Source: Clostridiales bacterium
GTDB taxonomy: Bacteria; Bacillota; Clostridia; Oscillospirales; Acutalibacteraceae
NCBI GenBank assembly: GCA_019418545.1
Contig: DYBQ01000003.1
Coordinates: 1-64,000 of the forward strand
Direction of reading: 5' to 3'
DNA: 64,000 nt
The notes under the pieces: model-generated
Databases searched by the model: none
What the model saw: the letters and a program-made list of their open reading frames with translations, nothing else
What the model was told of the DNA's origin: nothing
Shown here: in pieces, positions 3,001-62,907 of the stretch
How the letters are laid out: each line of letters starts with the position of its first letter
Numbering within the stretch: position 1 is the first letter of the stretch
Program-made: the position numbers and the translations under genes

Positions 3001-5152
3001 TCTCGGTGCCGTCGGCGCCAACTGCGCGCAGCTCCAACTCGATGCTGTCGTTCTCATCGAATACAGATTTCACATACAGAATGCTGTCGTACACACCGCC
3101 CAGATAGACGCGGCTGCCGTCAGACAGGGTTCCATATACGTTGTACTGCTTCACGCTGTCATAGTCGGCCATATCCCAGCTGAGGATCATTTCGCCGGAA
3201 TCGTAAGCATAATCAACAGCAAAGCCGGTGGGGGTAGCGGGCTTGTCAGCGCCGTCGGAGATCTTCAGACCGCCCACGTTGATCTGATAGCCTTCTGCCT
3301 CGCCTGCAAATTCCAGGGTAATGGCAGCAATTTGTCTTCCAGCATACTTGGACAGATCCACATCCACAGTGGTCCAGTCACCGGCGGTTTCGGAACCGGC
3401 GATGTCCAGCTTCTCGGTGGTTTCGGGAGCGTCCTTGAAGATCAGGCCCAGCTGCATGGCAACTGCGTCATCAGAGGTCTTCTTGAAAGTAATGGAAGCT
3501 TCGGAGTTTTCGTTGACAGCCAGATCGGTCTTGTACAGATGCAGGCTGTTAGAACCGGTAATGTTGCCATAAACTACCAGAGAGGAACCGCCCTCATAGG
3601 CGCCTACCTGGGTATAGGGCATGGTAATGGGCTTGTCGTTGACATCGTGGTTGACCAGCTTGCTGCCATAGTCAAAGTCCACTTCCAGTTTCTTGTCGTC
3701 GGTGCTTTCCACCCACCACTGCCAAGTCGGCAGGATATCCTGGATGTTGATGTTGGTCCAAGCCTTGTCAGCGGAAACAGCGCCGTCCACAAAGTACTGC
3801 ATGCCGTGACCGGTGTTGAAGTTGGTGTAGAACTTGGTGCCGTCGATGACGGAACGCTCGGCAATAAAGTCAGCCACGCCGACCCAGCCGGAAGCGTTGC
3901 TTACCTGCACATCGGGACGGCTGTAACCAGCCTTCAGGCCGGTATCCGTGGGATCTTCCTTCACGCCGGAGAAGAACATTCTTTCGCGCTCGGCCACCAT
4001 CCACTGGAACTCATCCCGCTGCATGGGAGGTGTGCTCTTTCCATCGTAGAAGGGAACCTCGTCCACGCCGCGCTGATACCAGTCACTGGGGGTGAACAGA
4101 GCCACGCTGGCGCGGGGGTTGCCGGTTTCATCATACAAGTTTGCCATATTCCGGGCACTGGAGTGACCACCGCTGAACTTGTTCTGGTTGCACTCTGCGC
4201 CGAAAAAGATGCTCTCAAAGGGGTCAACGCCGATCTGCTCGGCATAGGTGATGGCACTGTCCACAGTGGATTTGCTCCAGCCATAGTTGACGAATACGGA
4301 GTTGTTGATCTGTCCGTTGACATCATCCTTCAGCCACTGGGCTTTTGCAGAGTTAAAGCTGCTGTTGGTGTCATACCACTGGGTATACAGGCCGGCTTCG
4401 GTCAGCTTGGCCATAAAGGGTTTGAATTCTTCATAATAACCTTCTTCCTGATTCAGGAAGTAACCGTCAAAACCCATATATTCGGCGATTTCGATGAGCT
4501 TGTCTGCAATAGAGAACTCACCATTTTCGTCTTTTTCAATCAGGTCAGCACAGGTCTGGCCAGGACGGAAAGCAGGGTCAAAATAGATGCAGGCGATAGA
4601 CATAACGCCGTTTTTATGAGCAGCATTGGTATAGGCCGGGTTGGGAATGTTCACAATACCAAACTCAAACCCTCTTGCCTGCCAGTCACTGGTAATGGGG
4701 TCATAAATTGCTTCGGGGGTATAGGCAGTTGCTGCGCCATGCCAGGGAGAGAAGTAGTCAGTATACTGCCAGAAATTGAGCACATGCTCGCCAAATTTGT
4801 CGGTATACATGGTGCTGTTGAAGAAGCTGTTGCCATAGTCGCCTTGCATCAGCATAACCTGTGCATCGGACTCCAGATAGGGCTTAGCCTGGGTTGCCTG
4901 AAATGCTTCATTGCGCTCCTGCAGCGGCACCTCTGCTCTCAGGAACTCTGCATAGGGGTCGGTTTCAGGGCTCCAGTTTTCGATGTCCTTCACCCGGTAG
5001 CCTGCAAAGCTGGGCTCAGCAGACGCCTTGTCGTTGGGCCAGGAGTCGGAAGCAAACGCAGTGAAGGAAGTGCTCAAAGTGGTAAACACCAGAGCAGCTG
5101 CCAAAAACGCTGCGCCGACCCGCTTGGTCCTGCTTGTTTTCTTCATTTTCAT
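1..5152 (-). CDS. Secreted multidomain GH85-family endo-beta-N-acetylglucosaminidase-like protein; C-terminus runs off the window start
   Basis: Reverse-complement reading from ATG 5152 (RBS AAAGGGG) gives MKMKKTSRTKRVGAAFLAAALVFTTLSTSFTAFA signal peptide. GFDGYFLNQEEGYYEEF motif checked in frame at 4443-4510 matches the GH85 N-x-E catalytic motif. Downstream by eye: LRR-like repeats, two discoidin-like segments, classic FIVAR repeats (DYTAESWAVFADALAKANEV), then the same C-terminal cassette as the three paralogs at nt 1-130. No minus ORF in the track only because the stop lies outside the window; the listed + ORF 80..5209 is its antisense shadow. Confidence 0.7.
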   Translation of the reverse strand, partial: MKMKKTSRTKRVGAAFLAAALVFTTLSTSFTAFASDSWPNDKASAEPSFAGYRVKDIENWSPETDPYAEFLRAEVPLQERNEAFQATQAKPYLESDAQVMLMQGDYGNSFFNSTMYTDKFGEHVLNFWQYTDYFSPWHGAATAYTPEAIYDPITSDWQARGFEFGIVNIPNPAYTNAAHKNGVMSIACIYFDPAFRPGQTCADLIEKDENGEFSIADKLIEIAEYMGFDGYFLNQEEGYYEEFKPFMAKLTEAGLYTQWYDTNSSFNSAKAQWLKDDVNGQINNSVFVNYGWSKSTVDSAITYAEQIGVDPFESIFFGAECNQNKFSGGHSSARNMANLYDETGNPRASVALFTPSDWYQRGVDEVPFYDGKSTPPMQRDEFQWMVAERERMFFSGVKEDPTDTGLKAGYSRPDVQVSNASGWVGVADFIAERSVIDGTKFYTNFNTGHGMQYFVDGAVSADKAWTNINIQDILPTWQWWVESTDDKKLEVDFDYGSKLVNHDVNDKPITMPYTQVGAYEGGSSLVVYGNITGSNSLHLYKTDLAVNENSEASITFKKTSDDAVAMQLGLIFKDAPETTEKLDIAGSETAGDWTTVDVDLSKYAGRQIAAITLEFAGEAEGYQINVGGLKISDGADKPATPTGFAVDYAYDSGEMILSWDMADYDSVKQYNVYGTLSDGSRVYLGGVYDSILYVKSVFDENDSIELELRAVGADGTESDPATLTYTYTDKVSNVKVEEAKTSTGLLVRAATPGQLDVSFDAPETGAPDSYEYEVTLRNIAKDDPDNQVYTHTTSGDVTSATIPLPVEEGYEYDLKIYAVRDGEKGEPICYRGWSNDSYSEPIAKEDIRVSGSSVRLVDPDSVDWYTMTATFNGKQVASFKRGGVARFTATMRFSISGDGLLSVVTGDFAGNQSEPTVVMIEGGQVVDPTNLITEEQFPDAALLNAVKEQVGLTLDTLEEFTGTLDLSGTEVSDLTGLDRLTAMTGIDFSGCTSLTNISGLDKCTALKEVNISGCTALETVNLAGLGLEKLDASGEYAAIKSVDISDNKLDLSEGTPERAFVEAALAATATVETQSADKVNLAPSATIIASENVANAALFVDGNTGTDTNAAETATNKRDQPASVTLDLGSEKTIGSWSIWIKTNTDTPFRPFGVKTAELAISDTADGEYTTISTLNTVPADTADTLSETVAELETPVTARYVKITVTEWQPHPDGYLDWPAMVEAMIYEGDGAPAEAVKFDNQHPNVYSGVYFLPTEAINMEVSAEGTVDVMSYAEKAYTVRGNEYAGLKEQLINGKSFLAEDVDVNAKPDETFTVSVADQNFKPVEGTVLSLAEDITYTVTYKNAENETVGTLTIIVGDGGEATTPVDITVNPTILYATEQSDHNSKEDPEFAFDKDEGTKWCPGGNAVQSQLIIDVGAYYTLTEWNMSHAGVNLSDGSGRNTRDFELQILNVANPTAEQLADESFLTNDANWTTVASYENNQENRTHYEFTESVTGRYFRLNVTKGDTSAQWPSTRIYEWSMMGVLAKNPEPTPVDKTELEAAIADAAQYQEADYTAESWAVFADALAKANEVNADAEATQADVDAAVKALNDAIAGLEDYVPPVDKTELAAAIADAAQYDEADYTKASWAVFADALAKANEVNDNAEATQDDVDAAVEALNAAIAGLEEYVAPDKSLLQATYEYALKQSTEGVTDSAKKFFEDAVAAAKAVLDD

Positions 5153-48028: not shown

Positions 48029-49411
48029 ATGTTAGCAACCGACAAGACCATGGAAACCATCGTCGCCCTTTGCAAAGGCCGTGGATTTATCTTCCCCGGC
48101 TCCGAAATTTACGGAGGTCTCTCCAACAGCTGGGACTACGGCCCTCTGGGTATGGCGTTCAAGGATAACGTAAAGAACGCGTGGAAAAAGAAGTTCATTC
48201 AGGAAAGCCCCTACAACGTGGGTCTGGATTCTGCAATCCTCATGAACCCCGAAGTATGGGTGGCAACCGGCCATGTGGGCGGTTTCTCCGACCCGCTGAT
48301 GGACTGCCGCGACTGTAAGACCCGTCACCGCGCCGACAAGCTCATCGAGGACTTCACCGGCGAATCCGCCGACGGCTGGACCAACGAGCAGATGCAGAGC
48401 TTCATTCAGGAGCACGGCATCACCTGCCCCAACTGCGGCAGCAAAAACTTCACCGATATCCGTCAGTTCAACCTTATGTTCAAGACCTTCCAGGGCGTGA
48501 CTGAGGACGCAAAGAACCAGCTGTATCTCCGTCCCGAGACGGCACAGGGTATCTTTGTTAACTTCCCCGCTATCCAGCGCACCACCCGCAAGAAGGTTCC
48601 CTTCGGTGTGTGCCAAGTGGGCAAAAGCTTCCGCAATGAGATTACCCCCGGTAACTTCACCTTCCGTACCCGCGAGTTCGAGCAGATGGAGTGCGAGTTC
48701 TTCTGCAAGCCCGGCACTGATTTGGACTGGTTCTATTACTGGAAAGACTTCTGCAAAAACTGGCTGCTGTCTCTGGGCATGAAGGAAGAAAACATGCGCC
48801 TGCGTGACCACCGTCCCGAGGAGCTGTCCTTCTACTCCAAGGCTACCACCGATATTGAGTATCTGTTCCCCTTCGGCTGGGGCGAGCTGTGGGGCATTGC
48901 CGACCGTACTGATTATGATTTGGGCCGTCATCAGGAGCATTCTGGAAAAGATTTGTCCTATTTTGACCCAGAAACCAACACCCGCTATATTCCCTATGTA
49001 GTCGAGCCCTCTCTGGGTGCTGACCGTGTGGCACTGGCTTTCCTGTGCGACGCTTATGACGAGGAAGTTGTGGACGCAGAGAAAAACGACACCCGCGTGG
49101 TGCTGCGCCTGCATCCCTATCTGGCTCCCTTCAAGGCTGCCATTCTGCCCCTTTCCAAAAAGCTCAGCGAAAAGGCCCGCGAGGTCTATGCACAGCTGGC
49201 CAAGGAGTTCATGGTGGACTTTGACGACGCTGGCTCCATCGGTAAGCGCTATCGCCGTCAGGACGAAATCGGTACCCCCATGTGCATCACCTATGACTTT
49301 GACAGCGAGAATGATGGCTGCGTGACCATCCGTGACCGTGACACCATGGCACAGGAGCGCGTTTCCATCGATAAGCTGGCAGACTACATTCGCGAGAAAA
49401 TCGCTTTCTAA
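48029..49411 (+). CDS. glyQS: Glycine--tRNA ligase (dimeric class II, GlyQS type)
   Basis: [41 protein letters not shown]; anticodon-binding C-terminus; RBS GGAGG. Confidence 0.9.
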
Positions 49412-49429
49412 GAGAAAATCTTGTTATTG

Positions 49430-49479
49430 ACAGCAGGCTCTATTCCGGGACTCTCCGGCAATAGAGTCTGCTTTTTTTG
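49430..49479 (+). terminator. Rho-independent terminator of glyQS
   Basis: GCAGGCTCTATT...AATAGAGTCTGC stem followed by TTTTTTT. Confidence 0.8.
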
Positions 49480-49627
49480 CATAAATTTCTTTCCAAAAAT
49501 GGGAAAAACATTTTGGGCTCCCTTGTCGCTTTTATGAAAATACTGTATACTTTATTACTATAAATCAGTTATAATAAAAAGGGATATTCCCTGATAATAC
49601 TATCGAAAATCTGGGCAGGTGAACAAA

Positions 49628-50347
49628 ATGAATATGGTAGTCTGTGACGATGACCGTACTTTTGTCAAGATTTTTGAAAATGCCATTAAGGTCATTATGG
49701 AAGAAAAAGGGATTGACTGCACGGTTTTCTGCTATGATAATCCACTTACAATGCTTGAGCAGACAACCGTTCAGCCAAACACGGTATTTTTTCTTGATAT
49801 TGATATGCCGCAATTAACCGGATTTGAAACAGCTGATAAGCTGCGGAAACGTTTGGGAAAGTTTGATGTTGTATTTGTGACAAATCGAGAAGAACTTGTC
49901 TTCCAATCTTTTGAATACTCTCCCATTGCTTTTATCCGAAAAAGATATTTTCGGAAAGAGCTTTCTCAGCTGCTAAACCGCCTTTTCAGCGGATACCGCT
50001 TACAGGATACCGTTATTGAGGTTTTAGAGCAAAGAGGGAAAAATCGGGTTATACGTAATGTGCCGCTGCGCGATATTCTTTATATAGATAACGAGAAAAA
50101 TTATGTGAAGATTATAACGGCCAATGCCGAATACAGCCGTCGTTCAACACTAAATCAAATGGAAAAGGAGCTTTCTCCTTTTGGGTTTATTCGGGTTCAT
50201 GCTGGTTTTTTAGTAAACTATCAGTATATTGAGTCATTTGAACGCGAATATTTGCGCTTGACCAATCGAGCCATGATTCCATTGAGCCGAAGCAAACGGG
50301 AAAAAGCCTGTGAGTCCTGGTATCGTTTGCTTGGAGGGATGATATGA
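49628..50347 (+). CDS. LytTR-family response regulator (AgrA-like)
   Basis: Receiver domain (VVCDDD, FLDIDMP) and a C-terminal LytTR domain (YVKIITANAEYSRRSTLNQMEKEL...FIRVHAGFLVNYQYI). Confidence 0.85.
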   Translation: MNMVVCDDDRTFVKIFENAIKVIMEEKGIDCTVFCYDNPLTMLEQTTVQPNTVFFLDIDMPQLTGFETADKLRKRLGKFDVVFVTNREELVFQSFEYSPIAFIRKRYFRKELSQLLNRLFSGYRLQDTVIEVLEQRGKNRVIRNVPLRDILYIDNEKNYVKIITANAEYSRRSTLNQMEKELSPFGFIRVHAGFLVNYQYIESFEREYLRLTNRAMIPLSRSKREKACESWYRLLGGMI

Positions 50348-51690
50348 CAGAAACATTCTTGTGGACATTATTTGAAATCTTTGTAACAGTTTTGGAAGCC
50401 ACCTGTACTGTTTATTTTTTACATGGAATTTTGAGATTCCGGCTTTCCGGTAAAGCACGAATTATTTGCCCAATCATACTGTGCTTACTGCAAACCATTT
50501 TGATTTGTGCAGTTAATCTTACTCATGTAATTTCTTGGGCTATTGTAGAAATTTTTCTTTTTATTCTTTACTATACCTATGCTTATTTTTGTCTCGATGG
50601 GAATTTTATTCAAAAACTTATTTTTTCCATTGCGGATGTATTGCTGCTGCGTCTCACTACCACAATTCTAGTTTTTTGTATGAGCCTGTTGTCCAATACA
50701 ACCATAGACAATATGATAAATGAAAACAGCTGGATTCGTTTTGGTACAGTGATTTTGATTCGACTCTCTCATTTTTATCTCTGCGCCATAGCGGTAAAGC
50801 TGTTTCAAAAACACCGAAAACCACAAAAAATGGAATGTTATCTGCTGACCATCAACTTTGTTTTGCTGGATGCTGCATTAGCACTGAGTTTTAACCTGTT
50901 GGCCAGTGATACTCTTTCCCAGCAAAACAAAGGGCTTCTTTTGGGAATTGTGTGGATTCTGGCAATCATGGGTATTATTTCTTATTCTTTCCTTTTATAT
51001 GCCGGCCAAAAAAGTGAACGGGAAACCACTGAAGTATTAAATCGACATAAAGAAAAATTCAATCAAAACGAGGTTGAAATCCTCTACGAAAATTATCTCG
51101 AAATGCAGCGGGTTCGCCATGATATGAAAAACCATCTGCTGTGTCTCAGCGAAATGCTTCGTACCGGCCATTACAAAGAGGCAGAAGACTTTTGCAATAG
51201 TATCAATGACGATATTGAATCTGTCCAAAGCTATATATTGTCTGATAACCCAGCAGTAGGCAGCTTGATAAACTGCAAAATTGGCCAAGCTAAAAAGCGA
51301 GGCATTACTGTAAAATGCCTGCTCACCGTCCCCATGAAAGATTTTCCTTATAATTTGGAATTATGCGGGGCACTGGGGAACCTTTTGGATAACGCCATTG
51401 AAGCCAATGAACATCTGCCTTCAGGAGAAAAAAATATGTCTTTGGAAATGAAGTATGTTCATGACATGATGGTCATTAAAGTCAGTAATCCCATTAAGGG
51501 GCCGGTATTAAAAAATGGCACTCTTCCAGAAACCACGAAAACCGATAAAAAATATCATGGTTTTGGCCGAAGCAACACGGAATCCTATGTGCGCCGAATG
51601 AATGGAAAATTGTTGTATTCCGACAGTAACGGCTTGTTTACCGCTGCCATTTTTCTTCCTTATGGGAAAAATCGTACAATTTATCCCTAA
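50344..51690 (+). CDS. AgrC-like sensor histidine kinase (multi-TM sensor plus HATPase)
   Basis: Six to seven N-terminal TM helices; H-box RHDMKNHL; N-box GNLLDNAIEA; start overlaps the regulator stop as ATGA. Confidence 0.85.
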   Translation: MTETFLWTLFEIFVTVLEATCTVYFLHGILRFRLSGKARIICPIILCLLQTILICAVNLTHVISWAIVEIFLFILYYTYAYFCLDGNFIQKLIFSIADVLLLRLTTTILVFCMSLLSNTTIDNMINENSWIRFGTVILIRLSHFYLCAIAVKLFQKHRKPQKMECYLLTINFVLLDAALALSFNLLASDTLSQQNKGLLLGIVWILAIMGIISYSFLLYAGQKSERETTEVLNRHKEKFNQNEVEILYENYLEMQRVRHDMKNHLLCLSEMLRTGHYKEAEDFCNSINDDIESVQSYILSDNPAVGSLINCKIGQAKKRGITVKCLLTVPMKDFPYNLELCGALGNLLDNAIEANEHLPSGEKNMSLEMKYVHDMMVIKVSNPIKGPVLKNGTLPETTKTDKKYHGFGRSNTESYVRRMNGKLLYSDSNGLFTAAIFLPYGKNRTIYP

Positions 51691-51743
51691 ATCATGCAAA
51701 TTATCCCACATGTATTGATTTTTGCTGGTTTCAACGGTATCAT
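51679..51743 (+). promoter_or_regulatory. Candidate agrBD promoter with LytTR-type direct repeats
   Basis: Direct repeats TTATCCC at 51681 and 51701, 20-bp period, abutting -35 TTGATT (51715-51720); 17-bp spacer; TATCAT (51738-51743). Confidence 0.45.
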
Positions 51744-51778
51744 TATGACAGAATCCTTGAGTTTGGAATGATACATAG

Positions 51779-52381
51779 ATGATTGCTTCTGTTTCTGATT
51801 GGATTGCGGATTTCTTTGTATCTCATGGTGTGATTGCGGTTGAGGAAAAAGAGGTATATGCTTACGGCTTTGCGGCCATCATTTCTACTGTTATCAGTTA
51901 TGGGATTATTTTGGCGATTGCGGCTGTTTTGCATTGTATTTGGCTGTGGATAGTCTTTATTCTCTGTTTTTCCCCCTTAAGAAGATACAGTGGTGGATAT
52001 CACGCTTCTTCTTATGTTCGATGTAAGACAATTTATGCCATAACATTTTTGTTGATTGCTCTTGCAGTAATCTTTTTATCCCAATGGGATTTATGGTTTC
52101 TTCCAATACTCCTAGCGATTTTCAGTGTAATTGTTGTTTGTAAATTTGCTCCTGTAATTCCTCGGAACAAAGAGCTTTTGCAGGAAGAAATTGCTGCAAA
52201 CCGTCGAAAAAGCATATGGATTGTTTGCATCGAAGGATTTTGTGTGCTTATATTTTTAAAATGGTATTATGCCATATCTCTTTCCATTTCATTCATCATG
52301 CTGGCTGTGTCCTTTGCACTGTTAGCTGAAATATTCATTACCAAAAGGAGTGTTCACTCATGCAGAAAAAATCTCTGTTAA
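51779..52381 (+). CDS. agrB: AgrB-family autoinducing-peptide maturation protease
   Basis: PLRRYSGGYHASSYVRCK aligns with S. aureus AgrB RRHAHGAHAPSSFWC (catalytic His and Cys); multi-TM. Confidence 0.85.
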   Translation: MIASVSDWIADFFVSHGVIAVEEKEVYAYGFAAIISTVISYGIILAIAAVLHCIWLWIVFILCFSPLRRYSGGYHASSYVRCKTIYAITFLLIALAVIFLSQWDLWFLPILLAIFSVIVVCKFAPVIPRNKELLQEEIAANRRKSIWIVCIEGFCVLIFLKWYYAISLSISFIMLAVSFALLAEIFITKRSVHSCRKNLC

Positions 52382-52503
52382 AAATGGTTTGCAATGCAGC
52401 TAAATCCGTTGCTGTTAAGAGCTGCGGTCAGACTTCCTTCCTGGACTTCTATCAGCCCAAAGAGCCTGCTATGCTGCGCAAAATGAAGGAAGAGAAGAAG
52501 TAA
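52360..52503 (+). CDS. agrD: AgrD-like autoinducing-peptide precursor, 47 aa (not in the ORF track)
   Basis: ATG 52360 with RBS AAGGAG 10 nt upstream, overlapping the agrB 3' end. MQKKSLLKMVCNAAKSVAVKSCGQTSFLDFYQPKEPAMLRKMKEEKK: amphipathic N-terminal helix, Cys-containing core, then a conserved QPKEP charged tail like the clostridial AgrD HQPKVPKEL. Confidence 0.7.
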   Translation: MQKKSLLKMVCNAAKSVAVKSCGQTSFLDFYQPKEPAMLRKMKEEKK

Positions 52504-52605
52504 TTCCCCTTTTTTGATTTTTTCTTAGGCCGTTCTGCCGGTTATGCTCCCGGCAGAAACCGGTCTTTTATGAAAATGCCTACAGAGCATGGATAGTTCG
52601 ATTTC

Positions 52606-52665
52606 CCGCAAAGGCTCAGATAGACGACCTGTCTGTCTGAGCCTTTGCGCTTTTTTATGTTTTTA
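52606..52665 (+). terminator. Rho-independent terminator of the agr operon
   Basis: 18-bp stem GCAAAGGCTCAGATAGAC/GTCTGTCTGAGCCTTTGC followed by GCTTTTTTATGTTTTT. Confidence 0.8.
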
Positions 52666-52674
52666 TCGTAAAGG

Positions 52675-54474
52675 TTATTCTCCAATTTGTGTACGATACA
52701 TCCTTGCATATTTGCCATTGAGAGCCATTAGCTGCTCATGGCTTCCCTTTTCTAAAACCCTGCCGTCCTCAATCAAAATGATGATATCCGAATCCTTAAT
52801 GGTAGACAGACGATGGGCAATAATAAAGGAAGTACGGCCTTGCGTAGCTGTCAGCATAGCACGGCGTATCTTTTGCTCCGTCACAGTATCAACGGAACTG
52901 GTAGCCTCATCCAAAATTAAAATTGGCGCATTGATTAATACAGCCCGGGCAATAGTTAAAAGCTGCCTTTCTCCCTGGCTCAACTCCGCTCCGCTTTGCG
53001 TAAGCACCGTATCATATTTTTGGGGCAGCCTCTGGATGAATGAATCAGCACCTGCCATCCGCGCTGCCTGCTCAATTTTCTCCAGGGAAGCCTCTTCATA
53101 TCCATAACTGATATTCTCTCTTACTGATTTGGCAAAAAGAGCAGTATCCTGTAATACTACTCCAAAACAACGCCGCAAATCCTCCATACGGTATTCCCGC
53201 AAGTCGTGGCCATCCAACAGAATCTTGCCTGCCGTTACATCATAAAATCGGGTAAGCAAATTGATAATCGTCGTCTTTCCCGCTCCGGTTGGGCCAACAA
53301 TCGCTATTCTGGTACCAGCAGCAATTTTGAGCGATACATCCTGTAGAATCGGCTTTTCAGGCTGATAACCAAAATACACATGCTGAAGTTCAAATTCTCC
53401 CCGAGGCATGGTCAGCGAAAGAGCATTGGGAGAATCTTCCGGTTCAGGCGGCTCATCCAAAATATCAAAAATACGTTCCGCACCGGCAACGGCTGTTTGA
53501 AAATTATTATAGATATTGGCAATGTCCACAAAGGGTCTGGAAAACTGCCGGCTATAAAGCAAAAAGCTGGTTATCATTCCAACCTGAATATATCCCATCA
53601 CTGCCATAATGCCGCTGATGATGGAAATCAGCACATAATTTAAATTGTTAATGACATTTGTAATCGGCATCAGATAACCCGACCAAGTGAGGGCTCTGGT
53701 AGAAATCTTCTGCAAGTTTTCATTCAAACTTTCAAACTGCTCGATGGATTCCTGCTCTCTGCAAAATGCCTTCACTACATTTACACCGGAAATAGTTTCT
53801 TCAATTTGCCCATTCAGCTGCCCCAATACTTTTTGCTGCTCTGCAAACATTTTGCGGGTACGGCGAGTAATGATACGGGTTAGCAATAAAATCAGCCCAA
53901 CACTGATGAGTGACACTGCTGTTAGAAGCAGATTTAGGGAAAGCATGATGCAGAAAATACCAACAATTGTAAAAAGGTAAGTCAAGAGCTGCGTTAGAGA
54001 ATTGGAAATGGTGGTGCTGATATTATCCACATCGTTGGTCAACCGGCTCATGAGCTCTCCATGCTGTTTTTTATCAAAAAAAGCCAGAGGCAAATTTTTC
54101 ATAACCGAAAACAGGGTGACACGAATATAGTGAATGATTCTTTGCCCGATAGCGGCCATAAAAAACTGCTGCAAAAATCGAACCAGCCAATCGCACAGGT
54201 ATAGCCCCAAAAGGGTAAGCACCAGTACAATCAATGGATTTCCTCTATCTACCGCAGTTACGGCACTGCCAATCACCAAAGGAGACAGAATGGAAGAAAT
54301 CGAAGTAAAAGCCGACAGCAATAAAATCCATCCCAACCCTTTTCGATGGCCTTTTGTTAAGGACCAAAGTCGGAGTGTCGTCCCCTTTAAATCTTTTGGC
54401 TTTTCTACCGGGCGCCCTCTCATCCTTCCTCTTCCCATTCCGGTGGGCGGCGGCATACCATTCCGTTCAGCCAT
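52675..54474 (-). CDS. ABC exporter, fused permease-ATPase (MsbA/LmrA-like), subunit 2 of a heterodimer
   Basis: Six TM helices plus an NBD (Walker A GPTGAGKTT, LSQGERQ, Walker B ILILDEATS). RBS GGAGGGGG before ATG 54474, which overlaps the upstream stop. Confidence 0.85.
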   Translation of the reverse strand: MAERNGMPPPTGMGRGRMRGRPVEKPKDLKGTTLRLWSLTKGHRKGLGWILLLSAFTSISSILSPLVIGSAVTAVDRGNPLIVLVLTLLGLYLCDWLVRFLQQFFMAAIGQRIIHYIRVTLFSVMKNLPLAFFDKKQHGELMSRLTNDVDNISTTISNSLTQLLTYLFTIVGIFCIMLSLNLLLTAVSLISVGLILLLTRIITRRTRKMFAEQQKVLGQLNGQIEETISGVNVVKAFCREQESIEQFESLNENLQKISTRALTWSGYLMPITNVINNLNYVLISIISGIMAVMGYIQVGMITSFLLYSRQFSRPFVDIANIYNNFQTAVAGAERIFDILDEPPEPEDSPNALSLTMPRGEFELQHVYFGYQPEKPILQDVSLKIAAGTRIAIVGPTGAGKTTIINLLTRFYDVTAGKILLDGHDLREYRMEDLRRCFGVVLQDTALFAKSVRENISYGYEEASLEKIEQAARMAGADSFIQRLPQKYDTVLTQSGAELSQGERQLLTIARAVLINAPILILDEATSSVDTVTEQKIRRAMLTATQGRTSFIIAHRLSTIKDSDIIILIEDGRVLEKGSHEQLMALNGKYARMYRTQIGE

Positions 54475-62614: not shown

Positions 62615-62907
62615 CACAATTCCCCGGCTTCTGCTATTCCAATGTTTTTTGAAACAAAAAACGACCACCCGATTGGGTGGCCGCTTTATGTTGGCATCTT
62701 TCTATCGTCCCGGGCCGTCGCCAGCCAAGTATTTTCGACATCAACGAGCTTAACTTCTGTGTTCGGGATGGGAACAGGTGGACCCTCGTTATCATCGACA
62801 CCAACTATTTTGTTTTCCGTCTTTCCTGACGGTTTTATAATGATAACACGTTTTCCTGTAAAAATCAAGGGGTTTTTGCGAATTTTTTAATTTTTTTTGA
62901 ATCGCCT

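What the first reader, a model, noticed from the sequence alone, without database searches (positions are those of the whole stretch)
49628..52503. Complete agr-type quorum-sensing locus in agrA-agrC-agrB-agrD order, including an unannotated 47-aa AgrD
A LytTR response regulator, an AgrC-like multi-TM histidine kinase, and an AgrB homolog (conserved R-R-x-x-x-G-x-H-A-x-S...C catalytic region) are followed by a small ORF absent from the track (52360..52503). Its product has the hallmarks of AgrD: an amphipathic leader, a Cys-containing core and the conserved proline-rich acidic/basic tail (QPKEP). The gene order differs from the staphylococcal agrBDCA. A strong terminator closes the unit.
Basis: partly seen in the sequence, partly recalled or inferred. 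Interest (0 to 1): 0.6.

Follow-up and report, generated by a model that had tools for sequence, protein, structure and literature searches.

The report
Serine-type agr quorum-sensing locus, Clostridia

Summary
They are a LytTR response regulator (49628-50347), an AgrC-like membrane histidine kinase (50344-51690), AgrB (51779-52381; Pfam 1.4e-36; His75/Cys82 present) and a 47-aa AgrD (52360-52503; TIGR04223 28.8 bits, cutoff 19).

The small ORF is under purifying selection. Against a related gut MAG, all 8 nucleotide differences are synonymous, while AgrB is only 80% identical.

In 126 family members, the Ser six residues before Q-P is invariant, whereas Cys22 is present in about half. This layout matches the LC-MS-confirmed Ser-lactone pentapeptide of C. 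thermocellum. The predicted ring is therefore the lactone S-F-L-D-F, not a thiolactone.

The agrC-agrB spacer is 97% conserved. It carries two 19-nt direct repeats 20 nt apart, just upstream of the predicted promoter. Eight relatives have the same layout with different repeat sequences, which fits an AgrA-activated agrBD promoter.

Every full-length relative examined has the A-C-B-D order, and NCBI already names several relatives "AgrD family cyclic lactone autoinducer peptide". This is a new member of a known kind, of low interest.

The parts
49523..49551 (+). Promoter-like site for agrA-agrC (TTGTCG, 17 nt, TATACT). It lies downstream of the glyQS terminator hairpin at 49448-49469.
   Evidence: The consensus scan finds it. 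This block is conserved between the window and L001 in an otherwise diverged spacer. Its function is inferred.
49628..50347 (+). agrA-like response regulator: a receiver domain (Asp59) plus a LytTR DNA-binding domain, 239 aa from the ATG.
   Evidence: Pfam LytTR 7.2e-20 and Response_reg 1.6e-10. The best solved relative is ComE, PDB 4cbv. Other assemblies call a 239-aa product. Asp59 sits in LDIDMP.
50344..51690 (+). agrC-like sensor histidine kinase: about 7 hydrophobic segments in residues 1-216, an H-box RHDMKNH (His259) and a GHKL ATPase domain.
   Evidence: HATPase_c_5 1.6e-16. The only PDB hit is the S. aureus AgrC kinase module 6e52, with the H-boxes aligned. Hydropathy was computed.
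51669..51707 (+). Two tandem 19-nt direct repeats, AAATCGTACAATTTATCCC and AAATCATGCAAATTATCCC, with a 20-nt period. They span the agrC stop codon. This is the putative AgrA (LytTR) binding site.
   Evidence: One search finds the repeats. The TTATCCC-N13-TTATCCC pair is unique in the 64 kb, with none in 100 shuffles (scored scan). The spacer is 97% identical to L001. Eight relatives have the same architecture with different repeat sequences. L015 carries a second copy of the whole module.
51715..51743 (+). Promoter-like site for agrB-agrD (TTGATT, 17 nt, TATCAT), 7 nt downstream of the second repeat.
   Evidence: The scan finds it. The GTATTGA -35 block recurs at the same position after the repeats in relatives.
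51779..52381 (+). agrB: an integral-membrane cysteine peptidase/cyclase with catalytic His75 and Cys82.
   Evidence: PF04647 1.4e-36, covering 2-183 of 185 profile positions. R68, G73, H75, A76, C82, P125 and K131 are invariant in an 11-sequence alignment that includes S. aureus AgrB.
52360..52503 (+). agrD: a 47-aa precursor. Leader residues 1-25, predicted core S26-F-L-D-F30, follower Y31-QPKEP...K47.
   Evidence: TIGR04223 28.8 bits against a cutoff of 19. Identical protein in L001 with 8/8 synonymous changes. 515 profile hits, and the 126 examined all have the invariant Ser. The exact sequence occurs on 120 public contigs.
52435..52449 (+). Codons for the predicted macrocycle Ser26-Phe-Leu-Asp-Phe30.
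   Evidence: The invariant Ser is followed by the four most variable columns of the family, then [Y/H]-Q-P-x-x-P. The layout equals that of the confirmed C. thermocellum AIP (PMC5322536).
52533..52558 (+). First hairpin after agrD: a 9-bp GC-rich stem followed by a weak U tract.
   Evidence: Sequence and fold. The stem is conserved in L001, with changes only in the loop.
52607..52659 (+). Strong intrinsic terminator: a 20-bp stem followed by CTTTTTTATG.
   Evidence: One search finds it. It is conserved in L001. The whole 52500-52670 stretch folds with z = -7.9.

Best explanation
The locus is a functional agr-type autoinducing-peptide quorum-sensing cassette of a gut Clostridia bacterium (Ruminococcaceae-like relatives). 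It is organised as two units.

1. **Sensor module.** agrA-agrC is expressed from its own promoter-like site downstream of the glyQS terminator (inferred).
2. **Signal module.** agrB-agrD is expressed from a promoter in the 88-nt agrC-agrB spacer.
3. **Cleavage and cyclisation (inferred).** AgrB (His75/Cys82) cleaves AgrD after Phe30 and forms an acyl-enzyme. Ser26 attacks it to give a five-residue lactone ring, S-F-L-D-F.
4. **Leader removal (inferred).** An unidentified peptidase removes the leader. Cleavage is probably at or near Thr25|Ser26, giving a tail-less or short-tailed AIP.
5. **Sensing (inferred).** The peptide is sensed by the multi-TM domain of AgrC, which phosphorylates on His259 and passes the phosphate to Asp59 of AgrA.
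6. **Feedback (inferred).** AgrA~P binds the two direct repeats at 51669-51707 and activates the agrBD promoter. This gives positive feedback on signal production.

The gene identities, the residues, the repeats and their conservation are shown. The chemistry, the binding and the density dependence are inferred by homology. The output regulon lies outside this window.
For: - **Families:** family matches for all four genes; AgrC is nearest to S. aureus AgrC, with aligned H-boxes.
- **AgrB:** the catalytic His and Cys are invariant across the alignment.
- **AgrD is selected:** pN = 0 and 8 synonymous changes against L001.
- **AgrD family pattern:** the Ser at -6 from Q-P is invariant in 126 hits (108 distinct cores), and the next four positions are the most variable.
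- **Experimental precedent:** the C. thermocellum AIP is an S25-F29 lactone, with Y30 and P35 placed as here (PMC5322536). Other Ser-lactone AIPs are listed in PMC12312760.
- **Promoter:** the direct-repeat pair is unique in the window. It sits in a spacer 97% identical to L001 while the flanking genes are about 80% identical.
- **Promoter in relatives:** the same repeat-repeat-promoter layout occurs in 8 relatives with lineage-specific repeats, and the module is duplicated in L015.
- **Gene order:** identical in Ruminococcus, Paludicola and Ruminococcaceae loci.
Against: - There are no expression, peptide or binding data.
- The N-terminal processing site is a guess.
- The profile used to collect the family was built from Ser-containing sequences, so the count of invariant Ser is somewhat circular.
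- The repeat period is 20 nt, whereas the classical AgrA sites have about 21.
- No second repeat pair, and so no target gene, is present in the 64 kb.
- No terminator separates agrC from agrB, so read-through transcription is possible.
- The AgrC N-terminus and the middle of AgrB are hypervariable against L001 even though AgrD is identical. This is not what simple signal-receptor co-evolution predicts.
Confidence: 0.8

Rival explanations
1. The ring is a thiolactone made through Cys22, as the first reader's 'Cys-containing core' implies. That would give a large nine-residue macrocycle, C-G-Q-T-S-F-L-D-F.
For: Cys22 exists, and about half of family members have Cys at that position. Nine-residue AIP macrocycles are known: E. 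faecalis GBAP, although that is a Ser lactone (PMC12312760).
Against: In the other half of the family, Cys at -10 is replaced by A, N, S, G or I. Some members have no Cys anywhere in the core, for example ANGMTSWFDSY. Ser at -6 is invariant. The spacing of Ser to the Y-Q-P-x-x-P follower equals that of the experimentally solved C. thermocellum lactone. Residues -14 to -7 are conserved like a leader or recognition segment, not like a variable signal.
Confidence: 0.07
2. AgrB makes the Ser lactone, but the mature signal is tail-less and rearranges by O-to-N acyl shift into an all-amide cyclopentapeptide, cyclo(SFLDF). This would parallel the homodetic cAIPs of Ruminiclostridium.
For: Molloy et al. 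showed this route for tail-less thiolactone AIPs. They state that the fate of tail-less Ser lactones 'remains to be clarified' (PMC8251862). The conserved A/T just before the Ser and the C. thermocellum A24|S25 cleavage make a tail-less product plausible.
Against: O-to-N shift from an ester is chemically slower than S-to-N. The C. thermocellum product was reported as the lactone. The leader cleavage site here is unknown.
Confidence: 0.12
3. The cassette is an inactive or decaying remnant, for example left by a mobile element, and no longer signals.
For: Related cassettes sit next to phage-type integrases (L015-L018). AgrB homologues occur on phages and plasmids. No target promoter is seen in the window.
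Against: All four ORFs are intact. pN/pS is low for agrA, for most of agrC and for agrD. The promoter spacer is 97% conserved. Synteny with glyQS and the ABC exporters is kept in L001. The exact AgrD is seen on 120 contigs.
Confidence: 0.04

Closest known systems
Clostridium (Acetivibrio) thermocellum AgrD Clo1313_2818 and its cyclic lactone pentapeptide (Verbeke et al. 2017, PMC5322536)
   Same: The precursor layout is the same: a conserved Ala/Thr before an invariant Ser, a five-residue ring ending in Phe, then Tyr and Q-P-x-x-P. There it is S25-F29|Y30...P35; here it is S26-F30|Y31...P36. That Ser lactone was confirmed by LC-MS/MS.
   Different: The C. thermocellum gene was reported as an orphan, with no agrB, agrC or agrA alongside. 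Here all four genes are together. The ring sequence differs.
Staphylococcus aureus agrBDCA
   Same: The same four protein families are present. The AgrB His/Cys pair, the AgrC H-box, AgrA Asp59 with a LytTR domain, and paired direct repeats upstream of the autoinduced promoter are all shared.
   Different: The order here is A-C-B-D. There appear to be two promoters, and only agrBD lies behind the repeats. Ser replaces Cys as the ring residue. No divergent RNAIII gene is present. Identity is low (AgrB 19%), and Pfam's staphylococcal-type AgrD model does not match.
Uncharacterised Ruminococcus / Ruminococcaceae / Paludicola agr cassettes, which NCBI annotates as 'AgrD family cyclic lactone autoinducer peptide'
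   Same: The gene order is identical (LytTR regulator, HATPase_c_5 kinase, AgrB, AgrD). The AgrD motif A-[VI]-K-[AS]-x-G-x-[TA]-S-x4-[YH]-Q-P-x-x-P is shared, as is the repeat-repeat-promoter spacer.
   Different: AgrD is only 40-57% identical and AgrB about 25%. The repeat sequence is lineage-specific. The chromosomal site differs: here it lies between glyQS and ABC exporters, with no integrase adjacent to the cassette.
Clostridioides difficile agr2 (AIP NSA[SSWVA]) and S. pseudintermedius AIP RIPT[STGFF]
   Same: These are Ser-lactone AIPs produced by complete four-gene agr loci (PMC12312760).
   Different: The primer writes those loci as agrB2D2C2A2 and agrBDCA, a different gene order. The AgrD subfamily and ring sequences also differ.

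Membership tests
agr-type AIP quorum-sensing system | AgrB-family integral membrane peptidase with the catalytic His and Cys (S. aureus H77/C84) | tested here: met
   PF04647 at 1.4e-36, 126 bits against a cutoff of 23. H75 and C82 are invariant and align with S. aureus H77/C84.
agr-type AIP quorum-sensing system | Small AgrD precursor encoded next to agrB | tested here: met
   The 47-aa ORF overlaps the agrB 3' end and has a strong RBS. TIGR04223 scores 28.8 bits against a cutoff of 19. The ORF is under purifying selection.
agr-type AIP quorum-sensing system | Ring-forming Cys or Ser five residues before the AgrB cleavage site, followed by a follower peptide with a conserved Pro | tested here: met
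   S26-F-L-D-F30 | Y-Q-P33-K-E-P36. Ser, Q, P and P are invariant in 108 distinct cores. The cleavage site itself is inferred from PMC5322536.
agr-type AIP quorum-sensing system | Multi-TM AgrC-type (HPK10) histidine kinase | tested here: met
   HATPase_c_5 at 1.6e-16. About 7 hydrophobic segments. The only PDB match is S. aureus AgrC, with RHD..N H-boxes aligned.
agr-type AIP quorum-sensing system | LytTR-family response regulator | tested here: met
   LytTR 7.2e-20 and Response_reg 1.6e-10. The NCBIfam AgrA equivalog scores only 37.7 bits against a cutoff of 400, so this is not an AgrA orthologue in the strict sense.
agr-type AIP quorum-sensing system | Paired direct repeats (LytTR sites) upstream of the promoter that drives signal production | tested here: met
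   Repeats at 51669-51687 and 51689-51707, 7 nt upstream of the -35. The architecture is conserved in 8 relatives. Binding itself was not tested.
agr-type AIP quorum-sensing system | Secreted cyclic (thio)lactone peptide that activates the kinase in a density-dependent way | not testable with these tools
   This needs LC-MS and reporter assays.
Staphylococcal-type agr (agrBDCA with RNAIII) | B-D-C-A order in one P2 operon, a divergent RNAIII effector, and an AgrD that matches Pfam PF05931 | tested here: not met
   The order is A-C-B-D. AgrD has no Pfam match at E<=1. No Rfam family is found in 49300-52800.
Thiolactone (Cys) AIPs | A conserved Cys as the ring-forming residue | tested here: not met
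   Cys22 is present in only 62 of 126 family members, whereas Ser26 is present in 126 of 126.

The most novel reading that the evidence does not exclude
The roughly 165-nt stretch after agrD (52504-52670) has two stable hairpins and is 89% identical to L001 on average, with a fully identical ~55-nt core (52574-52629). That is more conserved than synonymous sites of the neighbouring genes. It could be a 3'-UTR-derived regulatory RNA that serves as the effector arm of this agr system, a functional counterpart of staphylococcal RNAIII. The low dS of agrD and the hypervariable AgrC and AgrB segments would then reflect recombination or selection acting on this RNA-plus-signal module.
Probability: 0.06. 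Interest if true: 0.5.

Novelty: new member of a known kind. Interest (0 to 1): 0.2.

Why it matters
It adds one more predicted peptide signal, a lactone S-F-L-D-F, and its likely receptor and promoter to the catalogue of gut Clostridia communication systems. Very few of these have been tested experimentally.

The practical value is modest:
- It gives a specific peptide to synthesise and a defined promoter with its repeat element for a reporter.
- It is a reminder that the ring residue of AgrD should be assigned from family conservation, not from the nearest Cys.
- It illustrates that small AgrD genes of this subfamily are annotated inconsistently. Several relatives are 'hypothetical protein' in NCBI.

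Tried and rejected
- **Pfam on AgrD:** Only the NCBIfam model matches.
- **Single-sequence searches with AgrD:** the indexed database returned one protein. The representative library returned only 9 hits, one of them (P0022) a repetitive 749-aa false positive. A profile was needed to reach the family.
- **Genome-contig scan with AgrB:** only one related genome was found.
- **PDB:** it holds no AgrB relative.
- **Rfam:** nothing in or after the locus; the only hit is a chance snoRNA match at E = 0.85.
- **More AgrA sites in the window:** a search of the 64 kb, including upstream of agrA, found only chance-level candidates.
- **Coding potential of the conserved stretch after agrD:** the reading frames are not shared with L001.
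- **Leader amphipathicity:** not significant.
- **Supplements of PMC11953309:** these might list this AgrD family, but they are not held.
- **Organism identity:** it could not be narrowed beyond a relative of a 'Clostridiales bacterium' human-gut MAG.
Full report
**Observation.** The four ORFs are present as described.

| Gene | Coordinates | Notes |
|---|---|---|
| agrA-like | 49628-50347 | A GTG at 49619 is also open. Other assemblies call the 239-aa ATG form. |
| agrC-like | 50344-51690 | Overlaps agrA by 4 nt. |
| agrB | 51779-52381 | Follows an 88-nt spacer. |
| agrD | 52360-52503 | 47 codons, overlaps the end of agrB by 22 nt, AAAGGAG 7 nt before its ATG. |

**Family matches.**
- The regulator matches Response_reg (1.6e-10) and LytTR (7.2e-20).
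- The kinase matches HATPase_c_5 (1.6e-16).
- AgrB matches PF04647 (1.4e-36, nearly full length).
- The small ORF matches no Pfam family. It does match NCBIfam TIGR04223, 'AgrD family cyclic lactone autoinducer peptide', at 28.8 bits against a curated cutoff of 19.
- The kinase's only solved relative is the S. aureus AgrC kinase module. Its FRHDYVN H-box aligns to RVRHDMKN here, placing the phospho-acceptor at His259.
- The kinase has about seven hydrophobic segments in its first 216 residues.
- The regulator carries Asp59 in LDIDMP.

**Is the small ORF real?** Several lines say yes.
- One related genome was found, a human-gut 'Clostridiales bacterium' MAG (L001). It has the same neighbourhood: glyQS, agrA, agrC, agrB, agrD, then convergent ABC exporters.
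- Between the window and L001, AgrB is 80% identical and agrB DNA 79%. AgrD is 100% identical, and all 8 nucleotide differences in it are synonymous (pN 0 of 113 sites).
- The exact 47-aa sequence is recorded as a called gene on 120 public contigs from four sources.
- Distant homologues found by an exhaustive phmmer search all lie immediately downstream of an AgrB gene wherever the upstream gene could be identified.

**Which residue makes the ring?** A profile of ten AgrD sequences retrieved 515 proteins.
- All 126 retrieved and cluster sequences that carry the Q-P-x-x-P motif have Ser six residues before the Q.
- The position of this window's Cys22 is Cys in only 62. It is A, N, S, G or I in the rest, and some cores contain no Cys at all.
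- Among 108 distinct cores, Ser(-6), Q(+1), P(+2) and P(+5) have zero entropy. The positions after the Ser are the most variable (2.8, 2.6, 1.8 and 2.3 bits). The eight residues before it, A-[VI]-K-[AS]-x-G-x-[TA], are fairly conserved.
- This is the pattern expected if Ser plus the next four residues form the specificity-bearing ring and everything before it is leader.
- The layout S26-F-L-D-F30 | Y31-Q-P33-K-E-P36 is the same, shifted by one residue, as in C. thermocellum Clo1313_2818. There an S25-F29 lactone pentapeptide was confirmed by LC-MS/MS, with Y30 and P35 marking the cleavage site (PMC5322536).
- Ser-lactone AIPs are also known from S. pseudintermedius, C. difficile agr2 and E. 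faecalis (PMC12312760).
The predicted product is a lactone.
- One caveat applies. The profile was built from Ser-containing sequences, which biases the count somewhat.

**AgrB catalytic residues.** An 11-sequence alignment was made of the window protein, nine relatives at 23-80% identity, and S. aureus AgrB. R68, G73, H75, A76, C82, P125 and K131 are invariant, and H75/C82 align with H77/C84.

**Regulatory anatomy.**
- The agrC-agrB spacer is 97% identical between the window and L001, although the flanking genes are about 80% identical and their synonymous sites are near saturation.
- It contains two tandem 19-nt direct repeats, AAATCGTACAATTTATCCC and AAATCATGCAAATTATCCC. They have a 20-nt period and overlap the agrC stop codon.
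- The TTATCCC-N13-TTATCCC pair occurs once in the 64 kb and never in 100 shuffles. A scored two-half-site scan finds nothing else above chance.
- Eight relatives have two direct repeats with a 20-21-nt period in the same spacer. In most of them the repeats are followed by a GTATTGA-like -35 block. The repeat sequence differs in each lineage.
- In one Ruminococcus locus the whole repeat-repeat-promoter module is duplicated 4.9 kb downstream, ahead of another gene.
- Paired direct repeats about two helical turns apart are the known binding mode of LytTR regulators such as AgrA (established knowledge). The inference is an AgrA-activated agrBD promoter.
- agrA-agrC has its own promoter-like site at 49523-49551, after the glyQS terminator. 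That block is conserved in L001, and no copy of the repeat is present.
- Two hairpins follow agrD. The second, at 52607-52649, has a 20-bp stem and a T tract.

**Gene order.** Every full-length relative examined has regulator, kinase, AgrB, AgrD on one strand. The kinase overlaps or nearly abuts the regulator gene, a 70-130-nt spacer precedes AgrB, and AgrD overlaps or abuts AgrB. These relatives include Ruminococcus, R. flavefaciens, Paludicola, a Ruminococcaceae MAG and unnamed metagenome contigs. The A-C-B-D order is therefore the norm for this subfamily. Other arrangements also exist, for example divergent agrCA and agrB-ORF in Monoglobus. The literature already notes that clostridial agr organisation varies (PMC12312760; PMC3901668).

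**Comparison with known systems.**
- The system works like S. aureus agr: the same four families, the same catalytic and phospho-acceptor residues, and a repeat-controlled autoinduction promoter.
- It is not a member of the staphylococcal type. The order differs, there appear to be two transcription units, the ring residue is Ser, there is no RNAIII, and Pfam's AgrD model does not match.
- It belongs to the TIGR04223 'cyclic lactone' AgrD family.
- NCBI already names several close family members in Ruminococcus, Eubacterium and Paludicola with that label. Others are still 'hypothetical protein'.
- AgrB relatives at about 30% identity are annotated on Clostridium phage CDMH1 and on several plasmids.

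**Unexplained.**
- Against L001, nonsynonymous divergence is concentrated in AgrC codons 1-90 (pN 0.20, against 0.03 elsewhere) and AgrB codons 96-170 (pN 0.235, against 0.03-0.06). Yet AgrD is identical.
- agrD has a lower synonymous divergence (dS 0.37) than its neighbours (above 0.9 wherever it could be computed; AgrC codons 1-90 are saturated).
- The 165 nt after agrD are 89% identical to L001 on average, with a fully identical ~55-nt core, and fold strongly (z = -7.9).
- Recent exchange of the agrD end of the cassette, or constraint on a structured 3' UTR, could explain this. Neither could be tested with two lineages.

**Verdict.** This is a new member of a known, already annotated kind. 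Interest is low.

Noticed in passing
window 52504-52670: The stretch after agrD is 89% identical to L001 on average, with a fully identical ~55-nt core (52574-52629). That is more conserved than synonymous sites of the neighbouring genes. It contains two hairpins and folds with z = -7.9. No reading frame is shared with L001 and there is no Rfam match. It could be a structured 3' UTR or a small RNA.
   Followed up: partly
window 50344-50613 (AgrC codons 1-90) and 52064-52288 (AgrB codons 96-170): These are hypervariable segments against L001 (pN 0.20 and 0.235, against about 0.03 elsewhere), although the AgrD precursor is identical. This is unlike the staphylococcal pattern, in which AgrD varies together with its partners.
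   Followed up: partly
L015 9217-9285; L015-L018 about 870-2070: In a Ruminococcus relative the whole repeat-repeat-promoter module of agrBD is duplicated 4.9 kb downstream, ahead of an uncharacterised gene. In several relatives the agr cassette sits directly after a phage-type integrase gene, which suggests carriage on mobile elements.
   Followed up: partly
window 62689-62805 (- strand): A 5S rRNA gene (Rfam 79 bits). An rRNA operon probably runs off the right end of the window.
   Followed up: no
P0012 (public variant of the window's AgrD): An allelic variant has Leu28 changed to Met inside the predicted ring (SFMDF), plus a change in the follower peptide. It is seen on 4 contigs. Other variants differ only in the follower.
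   Followed up: no
window 51737-51744 and 51767-51774: A perfect 8-nt inverted repeat, GTATCATT / AATGATAC, links the -10 region of the agrBD promoter to the sequence just before the agrB start codon. It could occlude the weak agrB ribosome-binding site in the mRNA leader.
   Followed up: no
L022 (Monoglobus pectinilyticus NZ_OY725741.1) 4132-4293: In this RefSeq record the small ORF right after an annotated AgrB is labelled 'hypothetical protein', and the kinase and regulator genes are divergent from agrB. This illustrates inconsistent AgrD annotation and variable locus organisation.
   Followed up: no
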